DNA of 64,000 nt. Origin: Candidatus Altimarinota bacterium. GTDB taxonomy: Bacteria > Patescibacteriota > Gracilibacteria > UBA1369. The stretch spans positions 480,001 through 544,000 of the forward strand of contig OY782391.1 of the NCBI GenBank assembly GCA_963677745.1, in the 5' to 3' direction. The number at the start of each line of letters is the position of its first letter. The stretch's first letter is position 1. The notes under the pieces were generated by a model, which was given only the letters and a program-made list of their open reading frames with translations, was not told the DNA's origin and made no database searches. The position numbers were made by a program, and so were the translations under genes. This document shows, in pieces, positions 3,989 to 49,626 of the stretch.

Positions 3989-4363
3989 ATGGCCAGAATC
4001 GCTGGAGTCAATCTTCCTAAAGAAAAAAGAATCGCTATCGGCCTGACCGCCATCTATGGCATCGGCAGAGCCCTGGCGCGCAAAATACTGCAAGACCTCA
4101 AACTGGACGAAGATACCAAAGTCCAGGATCTGACGCCTGAACAGGAAAACAAACTGCGTGACCGGATCGCCGAATGTATCACCGAGGGTGATTTACGCCG
4201 TAAAATCCAGCTGGACATCAAATACCAGCAGGACATCGGTACTTATCGCGGACTTCGCCATAAAAAGGGTTTACCGGTACGCGGCCAGCTGACCAAAACC
4301 AATTCCAGAACCAGAAAGGGCAAGAGAAAGACCGTTGCCAACAAGAAGATTGCCACCAAATAA
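3989..4363 (+). CDS. rpsM: 30S ribosomal protein S13
   Basis: [25 protein letters not shown]. Confidence 0.99.
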
Positions 4364-4393
4364 TCATTATTCATCCTAATCATTAATTCTACC

Positions 4394-4933
4394 ATGGCCG
4401 AACAAGAAAAAAAACCAGCCGTAAAAGCCAAGAAAGCCCCTGAGAAGGAAGTTAAAAAAACTGAGGCTGCCGGCGAAAAAACCGCCCCGGTTGCCGCCAC
4501 CCCCGCCACCGCTTCCGCCGCATCAGCCGCAGCCACTCCCGCCGAAGGCGAAGTAAAGAAGATTAAGAAAAGCAAATCCAAAAGGACTGTGACGGAAGGA
4601 AAAGCCTTCGTTCAATCAAGTTTTAACAACACCATTGTCACCATCACCGACCTTAACGGAAAAGTGATAGCCTGGAGTAGCGCCGGTTCCAACGGATTCA
4701 AGGGAGCCAAAAAAGCCACTCCGTACGCGGCCCAGATTTCGGCTGAAGCAGCCATTAATAAGGCTCTTCTTTACGGAATAGAAAAGCTGCACGTTTTCGT
4801 CAAGGGAGTCGGTGCAGGAAGAGAACAAGCTGTTAGAGGCCTTCACTCCAACGGCGTGGACATCGAATCAATCACCGATGTCACTCCTGTTCCGCACAAT
4901 GGTTGTCGTTCCAGAAAATCCCGCCGAGTTTAA
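4394..4933 (+). CDS. rpsK: 30S ribosomal protein S11, with ~60-aa Lys/Ala-rich N-terminal extension
   Basis: SSFNNTIVTITD, GFKGAKKATPYAAQ, DVTPVPHNGCR. Confidence 0.98.
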   Translation: MAEQEKKPAVKAKKAPEKEVKKTEAAGEKTAPVAATPATASAASAAATPAEGEVKKIKKSKSKRTVTEGKAFVQSSFNNTIVTITDLNGKVIAWSSAGSNGFKGAKKATPYAAQISAEAAINKALLYGIEKLHVFVKGVGAGREQAVRGLHSNGVDIESITDVTPVPHNGCRSRKSRRV

Positions 4934-4957
4934 TATTTGTAATTTTTCCGAAAAATA

Positions 4958-5578
4958 ATGTCTAACACTACAGGTCCCAAATCACGTCTTTTTCGCCGCT
5001 TCGGCATAAGACTTCCCAGCAACAACGAACTGAAACAGACTCATCCCACCTTAAAAAAGGCTTATCCACCCGGCATGCACGGGCCCAAAGGAAGCTTCTC
5101 CAAAAAATCGGAATACGCCCGCCAGTTGATGGAAAAACAGAAAGCCAAGGTGATTTTCAACATCACTGAAAAGCAGATGCAGAAATATTATGATATGGCT
5201 TCCAGCCGCGAAGGCATCACTGGTGACGAATTGCTCCGCCTGCTGGAACAGAGACTGGACAACGTGATCTTCCGGTCCGGTTTGGCCACCACCCGCTATC
5301 AGGCCAGACAGATGGTTAATCATGGTTTGATCGAGCTTAACGGTAAGGTTGCTTCCATCCCATCCATCCAGGTTAAACCGGGGGACAAATTTAATCTGGT
5401 CAGCAAAAAGAAGGATTCCCCCGTCTTCAAGCAAAATTCAGAAAGAGGAACCAAAGGCCCAAAGTGGCTGAACGTTGATTTAAAAAATATGACCGGATCA
5501 GTGGACAGAACTCCCGACAAAGGAGAACTGGAACCTCTGGTTTCGGCCAGTATGATCGTTGAGTTCTACTCAAAATAA
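4958..5578 (+). CDS. rpsD: 30S ribosomal protein S4 (no Zn-binding Cys)
   Basis: PPGMHG, SEYARQLMEKQK, LEQRLDNVIFRSG, ARQMVNHG, IVEFYSK. Confidence 0.98.
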   Translation: MSNTTGPKSRLFRRFGIRLPSNNELKQTHPTLKKAYPPGMHGPKGSFSKKSEYARQLMEKQKAKVIFNITEKQMQKYYDMASSREGITGDELLRLLEQRLDNVIFRSGLATTRYQARQMVNHGLIELNGKVASIPSIQVKPGDKFNLVSKKKDSPVFKQNSERGTKGPKWLNVDLKNMTGSVDRTPDKGELEPLVSASMIVEFYSK

Positions 5579-5601
5579 AATAATTCATTAATCCTCTTCT
5601 A

Positions 5602-6576
5602 ATGCATCAAATTCAAGAAGAAATTGGCATTCCCAAAATCAAGGTGGAAAAAATTAGCGATTCACACGCTATTTTCACCGTCAGCCCTTTGCCACAGGGC
5701 TACGGTATCACCATTGGAAATGCTTTCAGAAGAGTACTTTTATCTTCACTTCCGGGCGCTTGTATCACCGGTGTGAAAATTGACGGGGTAACCCACGAAT
5801 ATTCCACCATCAAAGGAGTCAAAGACGGCATTTTGGATATTACACTGAATCTGAAATCGATTCGCCTGAGAAAGAGCTCCCCCGAAGTCAGCGTACTAAC
5901 GCTTTCGGCCAACAAAGAAGGAGAGATTTATGCCAAAGACATCAAATGTTCATCCGATGTGGAAATTCTGACCCCTGACCAGTACATCACTACTCTGGAA
6001 AAAGGCGCCAAACTACACATGGAAATCAAAGCGGAAAAAGGTGTTGGCTATATCCCCGTCTCGGTTAAACAGAAAAACGATTACGATCCGGAAATCATCC
6101 TGATCGATTCGATTTTCACTCCGGTCAAAAAAGTCCGTTATGACGTTGAGGCTGTTCGTGTCGGCCAAATGACCAACCTGGACAAACTGATTCTGGAAAT
6201 CGAAACCGACGGATCCATCACTCCCGATGACGCCCTAAAATTCAGCTCCAATATCCTGCAATCCTACTTCAACCTGTTTAATAAGGAAAACATCATGGTT
6301 GAGGCGGAATACATGAGTGACTTCCAGAAGATTTCCCAGAAACAGGAGCTGGAAGAGAAAAACAAGCCGGTTCAGGAAGCCTATACTCCGATTGAAATTC
6401 TCGGTTTCTCACCCCGAACCCTCAACGCACTGATCAACGGGGGCATCGGCTCAATCGAACAACTTTCCAAATGCACCGAAAGCAAACTGACCAACTTGCG
6501 TGGTTTCGGCCGAAAAGCATTAACTGAGGTCAAAGACGCCCTCAAGAGCCGGGGTCTGAATCTGGCCGAAGAATAA
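5602..6576 (+). CDS. rpoA: RNA polymerase subunit alpha
   Basis: PLPQGYGITIGNAFRRVLLSSLPG, HEYSTIKGVKD, alpha-CTD SPRTLNAL...LRGFGRK. Confidence 0.99.
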   Translation: MHQIQEEIGIPKIKVEKISDSHAIFTVSPLPQGYGITIGNAFRRVLLSSLPGACITGVKIDGVTHEYSTIKGVKDGILDITLNLKSIRLRKSSPEVSVLTLSANKEGEIYAKDIKCSSDVEILTPDQYITTLEKGAKLHMEIKAEKGVGYIPVSVKQKNDYDPEIILIDSIFTPVKKVRYDVEAVRVGQMTNLDKLILEIETDGSITPDDALKFSSNILQSYFNLFNKENIMVEAEYMSDFQKISQKQELEEKNKPVQEAYTPIEILGFSPRTLNALINGGIGSIEQLSKCTESKLTNLRGFGRKALTEVKDALKSRGLNLAEE

Positions 6577-29358: not shown

Positions 29359-31359
29359 CTATTTGGAAAGACTCTGATCCTTCAACATCTCTATTTCATC
29401 GCGCAATTCAGCCGCCTTTTCAAACTCAAGATTAAGGGATGCCAACTCCATCTGTTCTTCCAGTTCCCGGATAAACCTGGCCATTTCGCTTCTTGGCACC
29501 TTTTTCGGATCAATTTTGTGTTCCGGACCGGTCTCCTTGTTTCCCCCGCCCATGGCAATGTCTTTAATGGCGCGAATAATGGTTTCCGGGGTAATACCGT
29601 GTTTAACGTTGTAGGCATGTTGAATTTCCCGTCTTCGCTCCGTTTCTCCGATCGCCCCTTTCATTGAATCGGTAATTCTATCGGCATACATCACCACCGT
29701 ACCGTTTATGTTACGGGCACAACGTCCGATAGTCTGAATCAGCGCGCTCTTGGACCGCAGGAAACCTTCTTTGTCCGCATCCAGAATCCCGATAAAAGAC
29801 ACTTCGGGAAGATCCAGGCCCTCCCTCAGCAGATTTATTCCCACCAGTACATCAAATTTGCCCAACCTCAAATCCCTCAATATTTCGATTCTTTCCAGTG
29901 TCTCAATGTCGGAGTGAAGATATTTAACCCTGATACCGGCATCAGTAAGGAAGTCAGTCAGATCCTCTGCCGAACGCTTGGTCAAAGTAGTAACCAAGGT
30001 TCTCTCCTTTACCACAATTCTTTTTTGGATCTCATTGATCAGATCGTCAATTTGCCCTTTGCGCGGCCGAACTTCGACCTTCGGATCCAGCAGGCCGGTG
30101 GGACGGATAATTTGTTCGATTACTTCTTTCCCGCTGTGTTCAAACTCATATTTGGATGGTGTAGCCGATACGTAAACGGTTTGATTAACCGCCTTTTCAA
30201 ATTCTTCAAATTTAAGAGGACGATTGTCATGGGAAGATGGCAACCGGAAACCATAATTGATCAAAGTCTCCTTGCGGGAATAATTGCCGTTAAACATGCC
30301 CCCGATTTGAGGAATACTGATATGTGATTCATCCACAATCATCAAAAAATCATCCGGGAAATAATCTAATAGAGTAGCGGGCGGCTGGCCTGGTTCCCGG
30401 GCATTGAGATAACGGGTATAATTTTCAATTCCCTGACAATATCCGGTCTCCCGCAGTATTTCCATATCATATTCGGTACGGGTTTTAATTCTTTCCGCTT
30501 CCAGAAGCCTTCCCTGTTTGAGAAACTCCTCGCGGCGTATTTCCATATCCTTCAGAATCAGGGAAACAGCCCTCTCAATTTTCTCCTTGGAAGTAATGTC
30601 ATGCTTGGCCGGAAAAATTTTCACCGAATCCAATTCGCGGTATTCCTCTCCGGTGAAAGAATCCGCCTCGGTGATTCGCTCGATCTCATCACCAAAAAAC
30701 TCTATGCGGAAAATGGTGTCCCTGTCAGGAGGGAAAATTTCCAGAGTGTCGCCGAGCACATGAAACATCCCCTGCTTAAACTCCATATGGCTGCGGTTGT
30801 ACTGAATATCGGTGAGATGACGCAGCAGCTTATCCCGCTTTCTCTCTTCACCTTTTTTCAGCTCAAAAGCAAAAGCGTTGTAATCCTCCACTGATCCCAA
30901 CCCGTATATACAGCTGACTGATGCAACTATCAACACATCCCGCCGCGTCAGTAGATGGGTAGTGGCAGCATGTCTGAACTTGGAAATTTCTTCATTGATG
31001 GAGGCATCCTTCTCAATATAGGTGTCGGTAGTGGCAATATAGGCTTCCGGCTGATAATAATCATAATAAGACACAAAATAGCTGACCGCGTTGTTGGGAA
31101 AAAATTCCTTGAATTCACTGCACAATTGGGCGGCCAGAGTTTTATTGTGGGCCAAAACCAACGTGGGCCGCTGTACCTGCTGTACCACATTGGCCATGGT
31201 AAAAGTTTTTCCCGTTCCCGTAGCACCCAGCAAAGTCTGATGTTTTACACCTTTTTTGAGGTTTTTCACCAGTTTTTCTATGGCCTGTGGTTGATCCCCT
31301 TTTGGCTGATAGGGAAATTTAAGATCAAATCCGGCCGGACTGCCAGGGATTAATGACAT
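29359..31359 (-). CDS. uvrB: Excinuclease ABC subunit B
   Basis: [46 protein letters not shown]. Confidence 0.99.
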
Positions 31360-31485
31360 ATTTTGATGGAAACAGAATTATAACAATATATAGACTATTT
31401 TCTCGGCGGCTCCAAGCCTTATTTTTGCCCGAAATAGCCTCGACCATTGACAACTTAAGAAAATATTGAAAAATCTTATTTTAGC

Positions 31486-31744
31486 TTTACTAATTTCAGT
31501 TTTAGTGTATAACTACTCTGGATCGGACTCCCTGGGGAGACCGACCGGATATTTGACATCTTGGCAACAAAACCAAGATAAACAGAAGGAAAAATAGTAT
31601 GTGCGGATTTGGCCAATTAGACCGGCCAGTCCGACAAGGATAAGAAGCCCTGACCAAACGAGTCAGTAAGGCGTTCCCTGTCTTAACCGACTGGGAGCAA
31701 AACCACAACCCTCAACCTTTTTCAAATCTGAGGAGGTGATGCCA
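31486..31744 (+). promoter_or_regulatory. Putative promoter and structured 5' leader of the Cys-rich gene
   Basis: TTTACT-16-TATAAC (31486-31513); five hairpins in 31517-31698; AGGAGGTGA at 31731-31739. Confidence 0.55.
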
Positions 31745-31852
31745 ATGTGCAACACTGTGGTGAGCCGACGGTATCACCACGACATCCGGAGTCTATGCGC
31801 TGGCCATCCCGGCAGCGCGGTCACGAAAATACGAGAGGAGAGATTTCCATGA
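31745..31852 (+). CDS. Putative 35-aa leader peptide (uORF)
   Basis: MCNTVVSRRYHHDIRSLCAGHPGSAVTKIREERFP*; perfect SD upstream; stop overlaps the next start (ATGA). Confidence 0.45.
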   Translation: MCNTVVSRRYHHDIRSLCAGHPGSAVTKIREERFP

Positions 31853-34800
31853 AATTGAAGAAGCGCGAATGGATGGCAGCGCTGATGATGGTAGCGCTGA
31901 CAGGACTGGTCATGACCCAGGCGGGGTGTGAATCGGATCCCCCCACCAGCTGCGACCCGGACAGCCCCTGGTGCAACGACAACACGGTGGACCCTGGGAC
32001 CGGCGGATCGGCCGGCCACCAGAACACCTGCACCTACCCGGAGAAGCAGTGCGGCGGCAACTGCACCAACGTTCTGATCGACAACCAGAACTGCGGAAGT
32101 TGCAACCTCACCTGCGGAACCGGCACCAACTGCCAGAACGGCGTCTGTGCCTATCAGTGTGTTCCGACCGGGCCCGAGACCTGCAACGGCAAGGACGACA
32201 ACTGCGACGGCCACATCGACGAAGAACTCCTGAACCTGTGCGGAAGCTGCGGGGTAGCTCCTGCGGAGTCCTGCAACGGGATCGACGACAACTGCAACGG
32301 CAGCGTCGACGAGGACTGCGAATGCCAGGGAGACGCGATCAAGCCCTGCGGCAGCAACCTCGGAACGTGCTCCACCGGCGTGCAGGAATGCATCAACGGC
32401 ATCTGGAGCCTCTGCTCCGGTGTAGCTCCCGCGGTGGAGACCTGCGACGGGCTGGACAACAACTGCAACGGGCAAGTGGATGAGAACCTGCTGAATGCCT
32501 GTGGCGGCTGTGGCATCGTCCAAGCCGAGCTCTGCGATGGCCAGGACAACAACTGCGACGGCCACATCGACGAAGGCTATCTCAATTCCTGCGGCGTGTG
32601 TGGACCCTTGCCATCAGAGAGCTGCAACGGCCTCGACGACAACTGCGACGGCATCGTCGACAACGGGCTCCTCAATGCCTGTGGAAATTGCGGTGCAACT
32701 CCGTCCGAGACCTGCAACGGGATCGACGACAACTGCAACGGGCAGGTGGACGAAGGACTCCGCAATCTCTGCGGAACCTGCGGTCCCCCTCCCGCCGAGA
32801 TCTGCGACGGCGTCGACAACGACTGCAACGGAACCATCGACCAGGGATGTCCCTGCATGACGGGGCTGACCCAGCCCTGCGGTAAGGATCTGGGAGTCTG
32901 TACCTCGGGTACCCAGACCTGCGTCGGAGGAACCTGGGGAACGTGCTCCGGTACGCCCCCTGCTGTCGAAGTCTGCGACGACGTGGACAACAACTGCGAC
33001 GGGAATGTCGACGAAGGGCTGAAGAATGCCTGTGGAGGCTGTGGCCCGACTCCCGTCGAAGTCTGCAACGGCGCGGACGACAACTGCAATGGCATCGCGG
33101 ACGAAGGTCTGCTCAACCAGTGCGGCAACTGCGGGCCTCTGCCCGCCGAAGTCTGCAACGGCGCGGACGACAACTGCGACGGCATCATCGACAACGGATT
33201 GTTGAACCGCTGCGGCAACTGCGGGCCCCTGCCCGTGGAAACCTGCGACGGGAACGACAACGACTGTGACGGAATCGTGGACAACGGCCTCCGCAACCTC
33301 TGCGGGAACTGCGGTCCCTCCGATCCTGACCTGTGCGATGGCGTCGACAATGACTGCGACGGCACTGTGGACCCGGGATGCCCCTGCATCACCGGTTTGA
33401 CTGAGCCCTGCGGCAAAGATCTGGGAGTCTGTACCTCGGGTACCCAGACCTGCGTCGGAGGAACCTGGGGAACGTGCTCCGGTACGCCCCCTGCTGTCGA
33501 AGTCTGCGACGGAGTGGATAACAACTGCGACGGGAATGTCGACGAAGGGCTGAAGAATGCCTGTGGAGGCTGTGGCCCGACCCCCGTCGAGATCTGTGAT
33601 GGTGTCGACAACAACTGCAATGGCATCGCGGACGAAGGTCTGCTCAACCAGTGCGGCAACTGCGGCCCCCTGCCCGCCGAGATCTGTGACGGGGTCGACA
33701 ACAACTGCAACGGCATCATCGATGACAACCTTCGCAACCGCTGCGGCAACTGCGGGCCCCTGCCCGCCGAAGTCTGCGACGGCGTCGACAACGACTGCGA
33801 TGGAACCATCGACAACGGATGTGGCTGCCAGACCGGAGCCACCATGCCCTGCGGCAAGAACCTGGGCACCTGCACCACCGGCCAGCAAGCCTGTGTGGCA
33901 GGACAGTGGACCCTTTGCTCCGGCACACCCCCCGCTGTCGAAGTCTGCGACGGCGTGGACAACAACTGCGACGGAAATGCCGACGAAGGCGTGAAGAACG
34001 CCTGCGGCGGGTGCGGCCCGACCCCCGCCGAGATCTGTGACGGGGTCGACAACAACTGCAACGGCATCATCGATGACAACCTTCGCAACCGCTGCGGCCT
34101 CTGCGGGCCCCTGCCCGCCGAAGTCTGCGACGGCGTCGACAACGACTGCGATGGAACCATCGACAACGGATGTGGCTGCCAGACCGGAGCCACCATGCCC
34201 TGCGGCAAGAACCTGGGCGCCTGCACCACCGGCCAGCAAACGTGTGTGGCAGGACAATGGTCACTCTGCAGCGGCGTCGAAGCGGTCTCCGAGACCTGCA
34301 ACGGCGTCGATGACGACTGCGACGGTGACGTGGACGAAGGTCTGCGTAACCGCTGCGGCAACTGCGGAGCATTGCCGGCCGATGTGTGCGACGGCGTCGA
34401 CAACGACTGCGACGGCACCATCGACAACAACTGCCCCTGTCAGACGGGGGCATCCAAACCCTGCGGAACCGACACCGGTATCTGCACAACCGGGACGCAG
34501 AATTGCGTTGCCGGACAATGGGGACTCTGCTCGGGCGTCGCGCCTGGAGTGGAGACCTGCGACGGACAAGACAACAATTGCAACGGGCTGAGCGACGAAT
34601 ACTTGCTCAATGCCTGCGGCAACTGCGGTCCGGTCCCCGCCGAAACCTGCAACGGCATCGACGACAACTGCAACGGGCAGATCGACGAAGGCCTGCGCAA
34701 CGCCTGCGGCAACTGCGGCCCCGCCCCGGCCGAGCTCTGCGACGGCGTGGACAACAACTGCGATGGAACCATCGACAACGGATGTGGCTGCCAGACTGGA

Positions 34801-35760
34801 GCCACCAAGCCCTGCGGTACGAGCACCGGAGCCTGCACCACCGGAACACAGAACTGTGTCAGTGGACAGTGGAGCCTCTGCTCCGGCACCGAAGCGGTTC
34901 CCGAAACCTGCAACAACATCGATGACAACTGCGACGGTATCATCGACAACGGCCTGCGCAACGCCTGTGGCACCTGCGGTGCGCCACCGGTGGAGATCTG
35001 CGACGGCATCGACAACAACTGCGACGGGCATGTCGATGAGAACCTGCGCAACCGTTGCGGCAACTGCGGGCCCCTGCCTGCTGATGTCTGTGACGGCGTC
35101 GACAACGACTGCGACGGCACCATCGACAACAACTGCCCCTGCCAGGCCGGGGCGACCATGCCCTGCGGTACGGACATGGGAGCCTGCACCACAGGAACTC
35201 AGAGCTGCATCGCCGGTCATTGGGGACTTTGCAACGGCGTGGCCCCCACTCCCGAGACCTGCAACAACGTCGACGACAACTGCGACGGACACGTGGACGA
35301 GTTCCTCAGGAACGCCTGCGGTAACTGCGGAGTCATCCCCGCCGAGACCTGCAACGGCATCGACGACAACTGCAACGGGCAGATCGACGAAGGCCTGCGC
35401 AACCGCTGCGGCAACTGCGGGGCCCTCCCTGCTGATGTCTGCGACGGCGTCGACAACGACTGCGACGGCACGATCGACAACGGCTGTTCCTGCCAGTCGG
35501 GAGCAATCCTGCCCTGCGGGAAGAACCTCGGAACGTGCTCCACCGGCAACCAGTTCTGCGTCGGTGGACAGTGGAGCCTCTGCAACGGCAACGGCCCCAC
35601 GATCGAAGTCTGCGACGGCGCGGACAACAATTGCGACGGACTGGTCGACGAGTTCCTTCGCAATGACTGCGGAACCTGCGGTACCGTCCCCGCGGAGTTC
35701 TGCAGCGATGGTCTGGACAACAACTGCAACGGGCTGACCGACGAGCCCGGCTGCATCTGA
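31849..35760 (+). CDS. Giant Cys-rich repeat lipoprotein (MopE-related metal-binding motif repeats; myxobacterial-type Cys-rich N-domain)
   Basis: GAGGAG SD before ATG 31849; signal MKLKK...TQAG-C; 32 ExC[DN]GxD[DN][DN]C[DN]GxxD motifs; about 175 Cys in 1303 aa (hand count). Confidence 0.9.
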   Translation: MKLKKREWMAALMMVALTGLVMTQAGCESDPPTSCDPDSPWCNDNTVDPGTGGSAGHQNTCTYPEKQCGGNCTNVLIDNQNCGSCNLTCGTGTNCQNGVCAYQCVPTGPETCNGKDDNCDGHIDEELLNLCGSCGVAPAESCNGIDDNCNGSVDEDCECQGDAIKPCGSNLGTCSTGVQECINGIWSLCSGVAPAVETCDGLDNNCNGQVDENLLNACGGCGIVQAELCDGQDNNCDGHIDEGYLNSCGVCGPLPSESCNGLDDNCDGIVDNGLLNACGNCGATPSETCNGIDDNCNGQVDEGLRNLCGTCGPPPAEICDGVDNDCNGTIDQGCPCMTGLTQPCGKDLGVCTSGTQTCVGGTWGTCSGTPPAVEVCDDVDNNCDGNVDEGLKNACGGCGPTPVEVCNGADDNCNGIADEGLLNQCGNCGPLPAEVCNGADDNCDGIIDNGLLNRCGNCGPLPVETCDGNDNDCDGIVDNGLRNLCGNCGPSDPDLCDGVDNDCDGTVDPGCPCITGLTEPCGKDLGVCTSGTQTCVGGTWGTCSGTPPAVEVCDGVDNNCDGNVDEGLKNACGGCGPTPVEICDGVDNNCNGIADEGLLNQCGNCGPLPAEICDGVDNNCNGIIDDNLRNRCGNCGPLPAEVCDGVDNDCDGTIDNGCGCQTGATMPCGKNLGTCTTGQQACVAGQWTLCSGTPPAVEVCDGVDNNCDGNADEGVKNACGGCGPTPAEICDGVDNNCNGIIDDNLRNRCGLCGPLPAEVCDGVDNDCDGTIDNGCGCQTGATMPCGKNLGACTTGQQTCVAGQWSLCSGVEAVSETCNGVDDDCDGDVDEGLRNRCGNCGALPADVCDGVDNDCDGTIDNNCPCQTGASKPCGTDTGICTTGTQNCVAGQWGLCSGVAPGVETCDGQDNNCNGLSDEYLLNACGNCGPVPAETCNGIDDNCNGQIDEGLRNACGNCGPAPAELCDGVDNNCDGTIDNGCGCQTGATKPCGTSTGACTTGTQNCVSGQWSLCSGTEAVPETCNNIDDNCDGIIDNGLRNACGTCGAPPVEICDGIDNNCDGHVDENLRNRCGNCGPLPADVCDGVDNDCDGTIDNNCPCQAGATMPCGTDMGACTTGTQSCIAGHWGLCNGVAPTPETCNNVDDNCDGHVDEFLRNACGNCGVIPAETCNGIDDNCNGQIDEGLRNRCGNCGALPADVCDGVDNDCDGTIDNGCSCQSGAILPCGKNLGTCSTGNQFCVGGQWSLCNGNGPTIEVCDGADNNCDGLVDEFLRNDCGTCGTVPAEFCSDGLDNNCNGLTDEPGCI
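32173..35757 (+). repeat. Intragenic mosaic array of 90-bp (22x) and 171-bp (9x) units
   Basis: 30-aa/4-Cys and 57-aa/8-Cys modules; near-identical DNA at offsets of 531 nt (32887 vs 33418) and 351 nt (33673 vs 34024). Confidence 0.92.
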
Positions 35761-35985
35761 CCATCAACAAGAATCATCGTCGCGCGCCATTCGCCGCAGC
35801 GAATGGCATACCGGTTCCCCCACTGACGCAGCAGCAAGGGAGCCCTTCACCCCAAAACCCGCCCCGTCGCACTGAGACGTCGTCTCTCGCGACGGGGCAC
35901 CGACCGTCGGCTGAAGCTTCTCCGGACTGACGAGCAGGATCTCACATCCCGCTCCTTCCGGACAGGCCACAGCCGCAAGAACCAG

Positions 35986-36027
35986 AAAGGCCGCTCACCC
36001 GCGTCATACGCGGGTAGCGGCCTTTTT
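35986..36027 (+). terminator. Intrinsic terminator of the Cys-rich unit
   Basis: AAAGGCCGCT-c-ACCCGCGT-cat-ACGCGGGT-AGCGGCCTTTTT. Confidence 0.85.
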
Positions 36028-36106: not shown

Positions 36107-37378
36107 TTAGATCTTTCCCAGATTATGCAGTTTGTATATCACTTCTGCCACTTCGCGGCGGGTAGTGAAATTGGTGGGATACAATTTTGTCCCGCTGAAC
36201 AAAGCGTTGTTTTTGGAATACTTGGCATAATCGGCATACCAGGCGTCCGCGGGCACATCGGTATAAGAAGTGCCGGTAGGCATTATTTCTCCCAGATTGC
36301 GGAGCAGTAGAGCCAGGAACTCAGCCCTGTTCACCGATCTGGCCGGTCTGAAATACCCGGCATCGGGTCCGGACAGATAACCGGTAACCACCGACAAAGC
36401 CTTGGCACGGCATACATACTGATAAGCCCAACTGGACTCGGTTACATCCGGAAAAGGATTGCTGCCGGCACAATAATCCGATACCGAGTTGAAATTATCG
36501 AAAGTTTCCAAAGCAATTTTGGCAATCTGATCTCTCTGCAACAAACCTCCCGGATCAAAAGTGCCGTCGGGATTTCCGGTTATGGCACCGATACTCTTTA
36601 CATAGGAAATAGCGGCACAGTCACTGTCCACCAATGAAACGTCGGTAAAACCTGCACATTTAGTCAGGATTGGCGGAGTGTTGATGGTAAAAGAAGGAAT
36701 AGTCAAAGCATCGCTCGTATTGCCGGACAGATCGGTTACCCTGACTTTACAATTACTGTAGGTGCCCGGAAGCATCGACTGGAACGTGACTGAGTTGTCC
36801 CCGCTCACCCCATTGGTAGTTGAACTGGAACAGGCTCCCTCATAAGTAATTGTCCCTGCTTCATTGGAGTTAAAAACTATGCCTGGAGTAGTATCGTCGG
36901 TCGGGCTACTCACTCCGCTCACCAGAGTCAGTGTGGGAGCGGTAATATCAATAATCATATTAACCTTGACCGTGAAGGCGGCAATATTCAAATTATCCGA
37001 AGTCAATCCGCTGACTGTGCCCTTCACGGTTAATTTGCAGTTTGTATGGGCTCCCAAGGCCAGAGAATTGAAAGTAATAGTATTGTTTCCCGACACCGCG
37101 TTGACGGTTGCACTGGAACAGTCACCGGAATAGGTGATTGTTCCGGCCTGGGTGCTGGAAAAGGTAAAATCCGGAGTCTTGTCATAAGTTACAGCGGGAA
37201 CAGGAGTAACCACGGCCAGAGTCGGAGCGACAAAAAGAGGTAACTGGGGATCAAAAGGAATTTCGGGAGTAATCGGATATGGATCGGGCAATTTTGCCAT
37301 AGCCAACATCTGCATGGAAAAAACACCAATCAAAACCATCGACACCAGCGCTATCTTTTGGAAAGGGAATCTATTCAT
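36107..37378 (-). CDS. Secreted protein with two Ig-like repeats and SLH domains
   Basis: Signal peptide; duplicated PTL...D.TP...F.S..AGTITY.G.CSS...NCK unit; FTDV/FPDV/YTDV, VNRAE, TTRRE. Confidence 0.85.
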   Translation of the reverse strand: MNRFPFQKIALVSMVLIGVFSMQMLAMAKLPDPYPITPEIPFDPQLPLFVAPTLAVVTPVPAVTYDKTPDFTFSSTQAGTITYSGDCSSATVNAVSGNNTITFNSLALGAHTNCKLTVKGTVSGLTSDNLNIAAFTVKVNMIIDITAPTLTLVSGVSSPTDDTTPGIVFNSNEAGTITYEGACSSSTTNGVSGDNSVTFQSMLPGTYSNCKVRVTDLSGNTSDALTIPSFTINTPPILTKCAGFTDVSLVDSDCAAISYVKSIGAITGNPDGTFDPGGLLQRDQIAKIALETFDNFNSVSDYCAGSNPFPDVTESSWAYQYVCRAKALSVVTGYLSGPDAGYFRPARSVNRAEFLALLLRNLGEIMPTGTSYTDVPADAWYADYAKYSKNNALFSGTKLYPTNFTTRREVAEVIYKLHNLGKI

Positions 37379-41309: not shown

Positions 41310-41386
41310 GAGCCCGTAGCTCAGCTGGATAGAGCGTTGGTTTGCGGAGCCAAAGGTCGTGCGTTCGACTCGCACCGGGCTCACCA
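41310..41386 (+). tRNA. tRNA-Arg(GCG)
   Basis: Cloverleaf: GAGCCCG/CGGGCTC acceptor, GCTC/GAGC D-stem with A20, TTGGT-TTGCGGA-GCCAA anticodon arm, GTGCG-TTCGACT-CGCAC T-arm, encoded CCA. Confidence 0.97.
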
Positions 41387-49056: not shown

Positions 49057-49626
49057 ATGAACTCGGTGAACGGAATTCATCACAACGACGTGCTGTACGT
49101 TCTGCAGCTGATGGGAGACTATGTGCGGGCGGGCAAACGGCCCAAGCCCAGCCACCCGGTCTCGATCAGGCTCTGCAAGCTGATCATCAGCGCCAACGTC
49201 TTCACGCTCTATTGTGAAGAAGTCAAGATGCGACTGGATGTGCTACACAACAGGTACAGCGACCGGAACCCGGTCGGTCTGAAACACCAGCAAATGGAGG
49301 AGTTTCAGCTGGTATTGCCTCAATACGACCGGCTTCACTCCGTCGCCCACGGGCTGGACATGTGGGAAAGCATGAACCCCGAGACCTTCGGCGCCAATGC
49401 TTTGGAGCGGATCAATCAGCTCCGGCATCTGGACAGGAACGTCTTCCAGCTGCTCATCAACAAGGGACTGACCCGCGAGTTGGCAGAGGATGCTCTGATC
49501 TTTTCCGGCCGTGAGCTGATTGATCCGGAGATGACCTGCTACCGCGACGTCCCCACTGAGTCCAGCCTCTTGTCCCCCTCGAACAGCACCGGGAGCAAAC
49601 GGGAAACCGACTGCTTCCGGCGCTGA
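49057..49626 (+). CDS. Orphan hypothetical protein in a GC-elevated monocistronic unit
   Basis: 189-aa ORF; purine-rich SD-like GAGGAAGGGA; upstream TTGCAT-16-TAAAAT (48940-48967). Confidence 0.65.
   Translation: MNSVNGIHHNDVLYVLQLMGDYVRAGKRPKPSHPVSIRLCKLIISANVFTLYCEEVKMRLDVLHNRYSDRNPVGLKHQQMEEFQLVLPQYDRLHSVAHGLDMWESMNPETFGANALERINQLRHLDRNVFQLLINKGLTRELAEDALIFSGRELIDPEMTCYRDVPTESSLLSPSNSTGSKRETDCFRR

What the first reader, a model, noticed from the sequence alone, without database searches (positions are those of the whole stretch)
31849..35760. Myxobacterial-style 1303-aa Cys-rich lipoprotein in a CPR-like genome
Seen: a lipoprotein signal, an N-terminal Cys domain (CGGNCTNVLIDNQNCGSCNLTC...CQNGVC), then 32 Asp/Asn-rich ExCDGxDNxCDG motifs and no catalytic domain. 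Third positions are almost all C/G (42/60 GC in line 33121-33180) and Lys is mostly AAG. Known: these motifs resemble the MopE-related putative metal-binding repeat and the Stig1/MXAN_6577-like Cys domain typical of Myxococcota surface proteins. Inference: a disulfide-rich Ca/Cu-binding rod used for adhesion or host mimicry, and a clue to host identity.
Basis: partly seen in the sequence, partly recalled or inferred. Interest (0 to 1): 0.72.

Follow-up and report, generated by a model that had tools for sequence, protein, structure and literature searches.

The report
Conserved GC-rich cysteine-repeat surface lipoprotein gene
This is a real gene for a giant cysteine-rich surface lipoprotein of a tiny Peregrinibacteria (CPR) cell; it is an old resident of a conserved locus rather than a recent import, yet it has stayed oddly GC-rich in every relative that carries it.

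Summary
Window 31849-35760 (+) encodes a 1303-aa protein with a signal peptide and lipobox Cys27, one Stig1-like Cys domain and 32 PF11617 stretches. It has no catalytic domain, 13.4% Cys and GC3 0.81, against a genome mean of 0.53.

The genome is a 1.34-Mb single-contig Peregrinibacteria (CPR). It encodes Lgt, LspA, VKOR and DsbA-like proteins.

The recent-transfer and host-clue reading is not supported. The gene lies beside uvrB, behind a conserved promoter-like block, in 6 of 10 relatives examined (five genera). In all six it is a GC-rich island (GC3 0.59-0.86, against 0.20-0.63 in uvrB). Four-fold sites are near saturation between genera. Its avoidance of CpG-ending codons matches the host genome, not GC-matched non-CPR homologues.

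Other GC-rich islands in this genome encode secreted orphan proteins. Three were searched for in five relatives; each has homologues in four, and the nine open frames measured are GC-rich too.

Best reading: a vertically inherited, fast-evolving, lipid-anchored, disulfide-knotted and probably Ca-binding adhesin stalk. Such proteins were already noted in Peribacteria in 2016. What keeps it GC-rich is unexplained, and that is the interesting part.

The parts
31447..31516 (+). Promoter-like region
   Evidence: TTGACA-16-AAAAAT at 31447-31474. The block TTTACTAATT...TAGTGTATAACTA, ending at 31515, is conserved upstream of the gene in all 6 syntenic genomes aligned. This region is still AT-rich (0.35-0.37 GC).
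31517..31848 (+). Long 5' leader. It holds a 37-codon upstream frame (31739-31852) whose TGA overlaps the main ATG, a hairpin GCGCTGGCC...GGCAGCGC (31797-31818), and an AGGAG box before the ATG.
   Evidence: Sequence. The frame and hairpin are alignable in the 3 same-genus genomes. Nine pairs are mostly invariant, which is too few sequences to test. GC rises from 0.45 to 0.60 along the leader.
31849..31929 (+). Signal peptide with lipobox (..TQAG-C27)
   Evidence: Translation. A Cys at this place is present in 6 of 6 orthologues. Lgt and LspA are encoded in the genome. No dedicated signal-peptide predictor was run.
32029..32157 (+). Single Stig1-like cysteine domain (about residues 61-103, CTYPEKQCGGNCTNVLIDNQNCGSCNLTC..CQNGVC)
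   Evidence: A search with residues 1-135 finds PF04885-bearing proteins, E 2.5e-26. Residues 74-126 match the many Stig1 units of the G001 and G002 orthologues. The domain is below threshold in this protein's own hmmscan.
32173..35742 (+). Repeat body. It is made of 30-aa units (ExC[DN]GxD[DN][DN]C[DN]GxxD-ExLxNxCGxCGxxP). Every 2-5 units a 35-aa 'knot' follows (CxCxxGxxxPCGxxxGxCxxGxQxCxxGxWxxCxG). Together these give super-repeats of 87-177 aa.
   Evidence: PF11617 in 32 stretches. A regex map finds 29 core motifs, 8 strict knots and 21 linkers. TRF periods are 90 and 351 nt. Internal DNA repeats are only 70-82% identical. AF2 of residues 546-692 gives pLDDT 83.6 and almost no regular secondary structure.
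35761..36027 (+). GC- and C-rich 3' untranslated region ending in an intrinsic terminator (hairpin 35989-36022 followed by TTTTT)
   Evidence: Sequence. GC is 0.64 over 35761-36010. The intergenic segment that contains it is the most GC-rich of 206 in the genome (0.601, against mean 0.412, sd 0.07). The terminator is conserved in the genus. Base composition is C 0.36, T 0.18.
29359..31359 (-). uvrB, the conserved divergent neighbour that marks the locus
   Evidence: Pfam UvrB domains. It is 79-91% identical to the neighbour of the orthologous gene in 6 relatives.
36107..37378 (-). Convergent SLH-domain surface protein. It is present next to the gene in G001, G002 and G018. No homologue was found beside the gene in the stretches read from G004 and G024, and none at the locus in G003.
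   Evidence: PF00395, E 5e-18. Synteny tables.

Best explanation
The gene encodes a lipid-anchored, extracellular, disulfide-knotted modular stalk. It consists of one Stig1-like domain followed by about 32 small Asp/Asn-rich, DxDxDG-type (probably Ca2+-binding) modules with interspersed Trp-containing knots. It most likely serves as an adhesin or spacer on the surface of a Peregrinibacteria (CPR) cell.

It is not a fresh import. It is an old resident of the uvrB locus of this family, inherited with its promoter. It evolves fast by gain, loss and shuffling of modules.

Its domain vocabulary is shared mostly with Myxococcota, so an ancient transfer from a GC-rich donor is the likely origin (inferred).

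Its GC-rich make-up now marks a whole class of conserved secreted-protein genes in these small genomes, noncoding 3' ends included. It is held in place by a local force that favours G/C over A/T. Candidates are GC-biased repair at often-recombining surface-protein loci, or patchwise conversion from GC-rich homologues. That force is not identified here.
For: Shown:
- ORF, signal peptide with lipobox, 32 PF11617 stretches and no enzyme domain.
- Lgt, LspA, VKOR and DsbA-like proteins are encoded.
- It is the most Cys-rich ORF of the genome: 13.4%, against 0.87% for the proteome.
- There are 32 DxDxDG-like sites and only 6 His.
- The same gene lies next to uvrB in 6 of 10 relatives examined: G001, G002, G004, G018, G024 and G006. 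All 6 genomes aligned, the window included, share the promoter-like block. The 3 same-genus genomes also share the terminator.
- The N-terminal signal and PWC region is alignable across these genomes.
- In 6 of 6 orthologues GC3 is 0.59-0.86, while the adjacent uvrB has 0.20-0.63.
- Four-fold sites of uvrB between G000 and other genera are 0.32 identical, against 0.25-0.27 expected at random. Those of this gene are 0.32-0.40 identical, against 0.30-0.36. Synonymous sites have therefore turned over while GC stayed high.
- Control: in 65 of 74 homologous loci from other organisms, gene GC lies within 0.05 of flank GC. Low-GC Bacteroidota, Bdellovibrionota and one Peregrinibacteria record have low-GC3 copies. 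The protein type therefore does not force GC-rich codons.
- NCG/(NCG+NCC) is 0.23-0.38 in the 6 Peregrinibacteria genes and 0.30 genome-wide in G000. The median is 0.52 in 26 non-CPR homologues of like GC.
- The 3' intergenic segment is the most GC-rich of 206. The next ranks include the flanks of other islands.
- Three other island genes were searched in 5 relatives. Each has homologues in 4 of the 5. The nine matching open frames measured have GC3 0.66-0.81.
- Both borders are bridged by independent contigs.
Against: - Similarity does not follow the species tree. The repeat body is closest to G004, another genus (68-69% local identity). The same-genus G001 and G002 carry a Stig1+MopE alternating architecture and are only about 32% identical by BLASTP. 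This points to mosaic exchange or long-kept allele types.
- Presence is patchy. Thirteen of 24 family genomes have any match. G003 keeps the neighbourhood but lacks the gene. G013, G019 and G020 have other neighbours at uvrB.
- GC-rich PF11617 genes also occur at non-syntenic places in other low-GC genomes (L041 +0.245, L036 +0.084). Repeated imports are therefore possible.
- DNA identity to a Myxococcales gene (74% over 397 nt) is close to that with the G004 orthologue (77% over 571 nt).
- No structural relative was found. Ca binding, surface location and adhesion are inferred, not shown.
- Position -3 of the lipobox is Gln, which is unusual.
- The force that keeps GC high is unknown. Internal repeats are only 70-82% identical, which argues against frequent conversion among the repeats themselves.
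Confidence: 0.6

Rival explanations
1. Ongoing patchwise import. The locus is old, but its modules are repeatedly overwritten by homeologous recombination with GC-rich PF11617 DNA taken up from co-resident Myxococcota-like bacteria. Donor-type GC is thereby renewed.
For: Stretches of 46-60 nt that encode the core motif are 90-96% identical to Myxococcota genes, which is long enough for recombination. Architecture differs sharply between congeners, and similarity is mosaic. Third-position C 0.62 and G 0.19 resemble homologues from genomes of about 0.63-0.66 GC.
Against: Among the 89 loci compared, no segment of 60 nt or more exceeds 93% identity to a non-CPR gene, and none of 100 nt or more exceeds about 82%. 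The signal-peptide codons and the unrepeated 3' UTR are GC-rich too. Island genes without PF11617 repeats are also GC-rich in relatives. The use of CpG-ending codons matches the host, not the 26 GC-matched non-CPR homologues.
Confidence: 0.2
2. One reading: a single recent horizontal transfer from a myxobacterium into this genome, which is informative about the current host.
For: Composition is strongly atypical. About half of the best genome hits are labelled Myxococcota.
Against: The same locus and promoter-like block are found in six relatives from five genera. The nearest homologue is a syntenic CPR gene. No tRNA lies at the borders (the only tRNA is at 41310), no mobility-gene-sized ORF lies between uvrB and the SLH gene, and the two flanks share no exact direct repeat of 9 nt or more. 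Synonymous sites are saturated between orthologues.
Confidence: 0.04
3. Native translational selection. The gene is very highly expressed and simply uses the host's optimal codons to an extreme.
For: On the ribosomal-protein-versus-genome codon axis the gene scores 0.059, against a ribosomal-protein mean of 0.062. Only 8 of 898 ORFs score higher. NNC codons, which ribosomal-protein genes prefer, are used even more here.
Against: The gene also favours G-ending codons that ribosomal-protein genes avoid: AAG 0.81 against 0.30, GAG 0.45 against 0.17, GCG 0.25 against 0.03, GGG 0.17 against 0.04. The noncoding 3' end is GC-rich as well. With ribosomal-protein codon usage and this amino-acid composition, the expected third-position C is 0.46, but 0.62 is observed.
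Confidence: 0.1
4. Assembly artefact: a GC-rich fragment of another organism was joined into the contig.
For: The GC step is abrupt. The interior is repetitive and breaks up in short-read contigs.
Against: Contigs from 3 runs in 2 studies cross both borders with no differences and equal depth. Six other assemblies show the same arrangement.
Confidence: 0.01

Closest known systems
Large cysteine-rich extracellular proteins of Candidatus Peribacter riflensis (Anantharaman et al. 2016, PMC4736985; passages read with 'find')
   Same: Same phylum. [quoted passage not shown] They were proposed to act in attachment and are variable between strains. That paper also reports several Lgt copies and one disulfide-bond protein.
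   Different: Those genomes are 58.5% GC. In the passages I searched the paper reports no compositional anomaly ('GC content' occurs twice, neither about islands; 'horizontal', 'lateral' and 'GC-rich' occur 0 times). Its Supplementary Table S4, which lists the Cys-rich genes, could not be opened. Here the host genome is 47% GC and the gene forms a 64% GC island kept across genera.
PF11617 'putative metal-binding motif' repeat proteins (annotated 'MopE-related') of Myxococcota and others
   Same: The same 30-residue motif in long tandem arrays, in secreted proteins. There were 3913 hits at E<=0.001 among the 8000 candidates scored.
   Different: In 65 of 74 loci from other organisms, gene GC lies within 0.05 of the neighbouring DNA. 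Here and in the syntenic Peregrinibacteria genes it does not. True MopE/CorA share only this short motif (PMC6189053, methods passage). The MopE copper site uses two His and a kynurenine (abstract start of PMC3423442, seen in the listing).
MXAN_6577-like cysteine-rich proteins (NF041328) and the Stig1 domain (PF04885)
   Same: The G001 and G002 orthologues at the same locus are members (about 1e-101; 13-18 Stig1 stretches). The window's protein keeps one such unit at residues 61-103.
   Different: The window's protein itself does not reach either model. Its body is made of PF11617 units plus knot modules instead.
DxDxDG-type calcium-binding repeats, for example thrombospondin type 3 repeats and the teneurin Cys-rich core
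   Same: Acidic D-x-D-x-D-G loops braced by nearby disulfides. The PF11617 consensus was aligned to the teneurin core in PMC3278476 (passage read).
   Different: No sequence or fold match to any solved structure was obtained here. The DxDxDG rule is recalled, not tested.
Hypervariable surface-antigen loci with atypical GC at a fixed chromosomal site, for example enterobacterial O-antigen clusters (recalled, no call)
   Same: A conserved position between housekeeping genes, very fast divergence of the cargo, and a long-lasting composition unlike that of the genome.
   Different: Those are multi-gene, low-GC clusters in mid-GC genomes. This is a single high-GC gene, one of several such genes, in 1-Mb genomes.

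Membership tests
PF11617 (Cu-binding_MopE, putative metal-binding motif) repeat proteins | Match to the Pfam model above the gathering score (27 bits) | tested here: met
   461 bits, E 1e-141, 32 stretches. In the six-frame genome search, 29 of the 33 matched stretches lie in this ORF.
MopE/CorA copper-binding proteins | Similarity beyond the short motif, and a copper site of two His plus an oxidised Trp | tested here: not met
   No PDB chain matched, either with the protein (E<=0.01) or with a profile of 19 repeat units (only two chance ribosomal hits at E 1.8-3.4). The protein has 6 His in 1303 residues. The copper-site description comes from the abstract start of PMC3423442.
MXAN_6577-like cysteine-rich protein (NF041328) / Stig1 (PF04885) | Model score above the cut-off | tested here: not met
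   There were 0 NCBIfam families and no PF04885 hit at E<=0.1 for this protein. The G001 and G002 orthologues pass both models. Residues 1-135 find PF04885-bearing proteins, so one diverged unit is present.
Bacterial lipoprotein | Signal peptide ending in a lipobox with an invariant Cys | tested here: met
   The sequence ..LVMTQAG-C27 is read directly. A Cys follows the hydrophobic core in 6 of 6 orthologues. Position -3 is Gln, which is atypical. No predictor was run.
Bacterial lipoprotein | Lgt and LspA encoded by the organism | tested here: met
   PF01790 has 3 matches over the cut-off and PF01252 has 1.
Extracytoplasmic disulfide-rich protein | An oxidising pathway (VKOR or DsbB, plus a DsbA-like protein) encoded | tested here: met
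   PF07884 (VKOR) matches one 230-aa frame. PF13462 has 2 matches. DsbB was not searched for.
Recently acquired genomic island | Atypical composition | tested here: met
   GC 0.637 against 0.474. GC3 is 4 sd above the mean.
Recently acquired genomic island | Absent from the same site in close relatives | tested here: not met
   Present beside uvrB in 6 of 10 relatives examined, both same-genus genomes included.
Recently acquired genomic island | Mobility marks at the borders (tRNA, integrase, direct repeats) | tested here: not met
   The only tRNA is at 41310. The neighbours are uvrB and an SLH-domain gene. The two flanks share no exact direct repeat of 9 nt or more.
Recently acquired genomic island | Codon habits of the donor rather than the host | tested here: inconclusive
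   Overall third-position make-up resembles homologues of 0.63-0.66 GC. The share of CpG-ending codons matches the host (0.23 against 0.30) and not the GC-matched non-CPR homologues (median 0.52).
DxDxDG calcium-binding repeats | The motif is present, and metal binding occurs | not testable with these tools
   There are 32 D-x-[DN]-x-[DN]-G sites. Binding needs an experiment.

The most novel reading that the evidence does not exclude
A conserved set of Myxococcota-like, Cys-rich secreted-protein genes in a Peregrinibacteria family is kept GC-rich for longer than synonymous sites take to saturate. Their GC3 is about 0.6-0.86, while the neighbouring uvrB ranges from 0.20 to 0.63. The cause would be a locus-specific force that favours G/C, such as strong GC-biased repair at hyper-recombining surface-protein loci. 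It acts on coding and flanking noncoding DNA alike. This would be an isochore-like compositional compartment in 1-Mb bacterial genomes.
Probability: 0.4. Interest if true: 0.72.

Novelty: new member of a known kind. Interest (0 to 1): 0.5.

Why it matters
The protein itself is one more of the large Cys-rich surface proteins already noted in Peregrinibacteria. It is a reasonable candidate for how these tiny, probably cell-attached bacteria hold on to partners.

The wider lesson concerns method. A 17-point GC jump and foreign-looking codons would normally be read as recent transfer and used to guess a donor or host. Here synteny across genera shows that reading to be wrong.

If the persistent GC-rich state of this gene class is confirmed, it gives a compact natural system in which to ask whether biased gene conversion or another local force can hold part of a bacterial genome away from its mutational equilibrium. 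The system comprises several complete 1-Mb genomes, a handful of loci, and neighbouring-gene (uvrB) GC3 from 0.20 to 0.63.

Tried and rejected
- NCBIfam on the protein found nothing.
- PDB sequence searches with the protein and with a repeat profile gave no real match.
- No RNA holder was listed among the sequencing runs, so nothing can be said on expression.
- The repeat interior is covered only by short contigs with some skips and loose ends. I draw nothing from these.
- I tested whether the conserved promoter-like block is shared by the other GC-rich islands. It occurs once in the genome; the 6 weaker matches are not before islands. A shared regulon is not supported.
- I looked for direct repeats bounding the island. 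None of 9 nt or more was found; the longest inverted match is 10 nt.
- I tried a tree of motif-plus-knot modules to separate in-situ growth from import. A strict pattern found only 19 modules, 15 of them in G000 and G004, so the tree was abandoned.
- I tested whether Cys content predicts GC3 genome-wide. It does not: Spearman 0.003 over 920 ORFs.
- Frequent conversion among the gene's own repeats as the GC driver is weakened by their 70-82% DNA identity.
- The 3' UTRs show no remnants of Cys-rich coding sequence in any frame.
- The long antisense ORFs inside the gene (for example 32577-34430, minus strand, 617 aa) are taken as by-products of NNC codon periodicity, not as genes.
- Literature searches for the GC anomaly: one search found 151 papers holding at least 3 of the 4 terms, and none of the 12 listed is on the topic by title or abstract start. 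One search found 0 papers. Supplements are closed, so Table S4 of that paper was not seen.
- The search of protein representatives, the protein-atlas search, complex prediction and the second structure job were not used.

Full report
**What is there.** Window 31849-35760 (+) is an uninterrupted 1303-codon frame. The product starts with a signal peptide and a lipobox cysteine (MKLKKREWMAALMMVALTGLVMTQAG-C27). Next comes a short Gly/Pro-rich linker and one cysteine domain (about residues 61-103). A repeat body follows from residue 109 to 1298.

Pfam finds a single family, PF11617, with 32 stretches (E 1e-141). NCBIfam finds nothing.

A pattern map shows 30-residue units of the form ExC[DN]GxD[DN][DN]C[DN]GxxDExLxNxCGxCGxxP. 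Every 2-5 units a 35-residue knot with one Trp and six Cys follows. Together they form super-repeats of 87-177 residues. TRF sees periods of 90 and 351 nt.

The protein has 13.4% Cys, the highest of any ORF in the genome (the proteome has 0.87%). It has 32 D-x-[DN]-x-[DN]-G sites and only 6 His.

**The host genome.** The window is C1:480001-544000 of a single 1,335,835-bp contig. Completeness is 97.9% and GC is 0.474. A same-genus relative, G001, contains letter for letter a record titled Candidatus Peregrinibacteria bacterium UBA1369. All 40 relatives listed have genomes of 0.9-1.9 Mb. The 'CPR-like' label is therefore correct.

The genome encodes three Lgt, one LspA, a VKOR and two DsbA-like proteins. 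Lipidation and extracytoplasmic disulfide formation are therefore available.

**Composition.** The gene is 0.637 GC. GC3 is 0.807, against a mean of 0.533 (sd 0.069) over 920 ORFs. GC rises within the 5' leader and falls only at the terminator near 36027.

The 3' intergenic segment is the most GC-rich of 206 intergenic segments in the genome (0.601, against 0.412 ± 0.07).

This is not a chimeric join. Logan contigs from three runs in two studies run from the AT-rich flanks into the gene on both sides, with no differences and equal depth.

**Recent import from a myxobacterium?** The protein family is indeed commonest in records labelled Myxococcota: 41 of the best 80 genome loci by my reading of the titles. 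Named hits agree.

Three results nevertheless speak against a recent transfer.

(a) Synteny. I examined the uvrB neighbourhood of 10 relatives. In 6 of them (G001 and G002 of the same genus; G004, G006, G018 and G024 of other genera) a PF11617 lipoprotein gene lies divergently next to uvrB, as it does here. G003 keeps the neighbourhood but lacks the gene and the SLH neighbour. G013, G019 and G020 have different neighbours at uvrB.

A promoter-like block (TTTACTAATT...TAGTGTATAACTA) is conserved upstream in all six genomes aligned. The three same-genus genomes also share leader elements and the terminator.

(b) The closest relative is the syntenic gene of G004, at 68-69% local identity. No hit in the large protein collection exceeds 51% identity, and the top hit has 43% over 74% of the query.

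(c) There are no mobility marks.

**The anomaly is shared by the orthologues.** In all six syntenic orthologues the gene is a GC-rich island (gene GC3, then uvrB GC3):

- G006: 0.61, 0.20
- G018: 0.73, 0.32
- G024: 0.59, 0.36
- G004: 0.86, 0.51
- G002: 0.83, 0.53
- G001: 0.84, 0.63

Third-position C is 0.47-0.64 in the genes and 0.06-0.29 in uvrB.

Four-fold sites of uvrB are close to random between G000 and other genera: 0.32 identical, against 0.25-0.27 expected. Those of this gene are equally scrambled: 0.32-0.40, against 0.30-0.36. Synonymous sites have therefore turned over completely, and a passively ameliorating import should by now look like its host.

**Controls on the cause.** Does the protein type force GC-rich codons? 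No. In 65 of 74 homologous loci from other organisms, gene GC lies within 0.05 of flank GC. Copies in low-GC Bacteroidota, Bdellovibrionota and one Peregrinibacteria record (L102, GC3 0.32) are AT-rich at third positions.

Is it native translational optimisation? Only in part. NNC codons go the same way as in ribosomal-protein genes. But the gene also prefers AAG, GAG, GCG, ACG and GGG, which those genes avoid. Noncoding flanks are GC-rich too.

Is it donor dialect, renewed by import? The overall third-position make-up resembles homologues from genomes of about 0.63-0.66 GC. Motif-coding stretches of 46-60 nt are 90-96% identical to Myxococcota genes.

Against this, the share of CpG-ending codons among NCC and NCG codons is 0.23-0.38 in the six Peregrinibacteria genes. 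That matches G000's genome-wide 0.30. The median is 0.52 in 26 GC-matched non-CPR homologues, chosen from the 33 examined (Mann-Whitney p 1.4e-4; the six genes are kin, so this overstates the evidence).

The signal-peptide codons are GC-rich as well (GC3 0.70-0.93 in the first 30 codons of five orthologues; the G018 frame as cut carries an upstream extension).

Conversion among the gene's own repeats is unlikely to be the driver, because they are only 70-82% identical at the DNA level.

**A class of such genes.** G000 has further GC-rich islands, near 99 kb, 725 kb, 850 kb, 914 kb, 1031 kb and 1307-1311 kb. They encode proteins without Pfam families, or with only weak PF11617 hits. Eight of the nine start with an N-terminal hydrophobic stretch, judged by eye, and most have above-average Cys.

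Three of these proteins were searched for in five relatives. Each has homologues in four of the five. The nine matching open frames I measured have GC3 0.66-0.81, inside AT-richer DNA.

The 800-aa protein has partial relatives that carry DUF4215, the Myxococcus-type Cys-rich repeat. The intergenic flanks of several islands rank among the most GC-rich in the genome.

**Evolution of the gene itself.** It is a mosaic:

- The N-terminal signal and PWC region is most like that of the congeners G001 and G002.
- The Stig1-like unit is most like that of G024.
- The repeat body is most like that of G004.

G001 and G002 have amplified a Stig1+MopE pair and pass the MXAN_6577-like model. G000 keeps one Stig1-like unit and has amplified MopE units and knots.

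This fits rapid module turnover at a surface-protein locus. Allele exchange within the family is not excluded.

**Function.** This part is inferred. The protein has a lipid anchor, 175 Cys in small modules, an oxidising pathway in the genome, DxDxDG-type acidic loops (a rule I recall, not tested here), no enzyme domain and a neighbouring SLH protein. Together these point to a long, Ca-stabilised, disulfide-braced stalk or adhesin on the cell surface.

AF2 of residues 546-692, run with an 11-row alignment of super-repeats, gives pLDDT 83.6 and pTM 0.46, with almost no helices or sheets. That is consistent with a string of small knotted modules. Foldseek finds no PDB relative.

Copper binding as in MopE is unlikely, given the few His and no similarity beyond the motif.

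**What is known.** Anantharaman et al. 2016 (PMC4736985; passages read) already described large, Cys-rich, probably extracellular proteins in Peribacteria. They noted weak similarity to Myxococcus Cys-rich repeat proteins, strain variation, and a proposed role in attachment.

I found no mention of a compositional anomaly in that paper's searched passages, nor in two literature searches. Supplements could not be read.

**Verdict.** The protein is a new member of a known kind.

The recent-transfer and host-clue interpretation is not supported.

The unexpected result is that the foreign-looking composition is old, shared by orthologues across genera and by a class of secreted-protein genes. Its cause is open.

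Noticed in passing
window 31739-31852 and 31797-31818: The long 5' leader holds a 37-codon upstream frame. It is preceded by GAGGAGG, and its TGA overlaps the main ATG (ATGA). A GC-rich hairpin lies just before the AGGAG box. G002 keeps a similar frame (MPM..VVS..HH..HPGSA) with an in-frame 3-nt difference. The hairpin is alignable in G000, G001 and G002.
   Followed up: partly
G000:C1 about 99043-100053, 724611-726860, 850296-852698, 913698-915652, 1031471-1032010, 1307222-1311527 (loci L108-L113): There are six further GC-rich islands (GC 0.56-0.67). They encode signal-peptide-like orphan proteins, and three of them carry PF11617 hits (two below the Pfam cut-off, one above). Three island genes were searched for in 5 relatives: each has homologues in 4 of them, and the nine open frames measured are GC-rich there too.
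   Followed up: partly
window 49057-49626 (+): A 189-aa ORF with GC3 0.795 and no Pfam family, in a window segment of raised GC (0.517). It has no obvious signal peptide.
   Followed up: no
L041 (record titled uncultured Gammaproteobacteria bacterium), match 4001-5923: Another PF11617 gene forms a strong GC island (0.656, against 0.411 in the flanks) in a low-GC genome. It is not at a uvrB locus. The flanking ORFs are only 30-47% identical to G000 proteins.
   Followed up: partly
L130 (G003:C1:35000-48000): A same-family genome is extremely AT-rich (flanking genes have GC 0.25-0.32 and GC3 0.10-0.21). It keeps the gene order around uvrB but lacks both the PF11617 gene and the SLH neighbour.
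   Followed up: partly
window 32577-34430 and 32614-34257 (minus strand): Very long antisense open frames (617 and 547 aa) lie inside the gene. They are the expected by-product of NNC-rich codons and are not supported as genes.
   Followed up: no
L024 (G032:C1:342000-356691): In a different family of the same order, a multi-gene GC-rich island (0.56-0.65, against about 0.40) includes a PF11617 gene and a 383-aa secreted-looking ORF. It is not next to uvrB.
   Followed up: no
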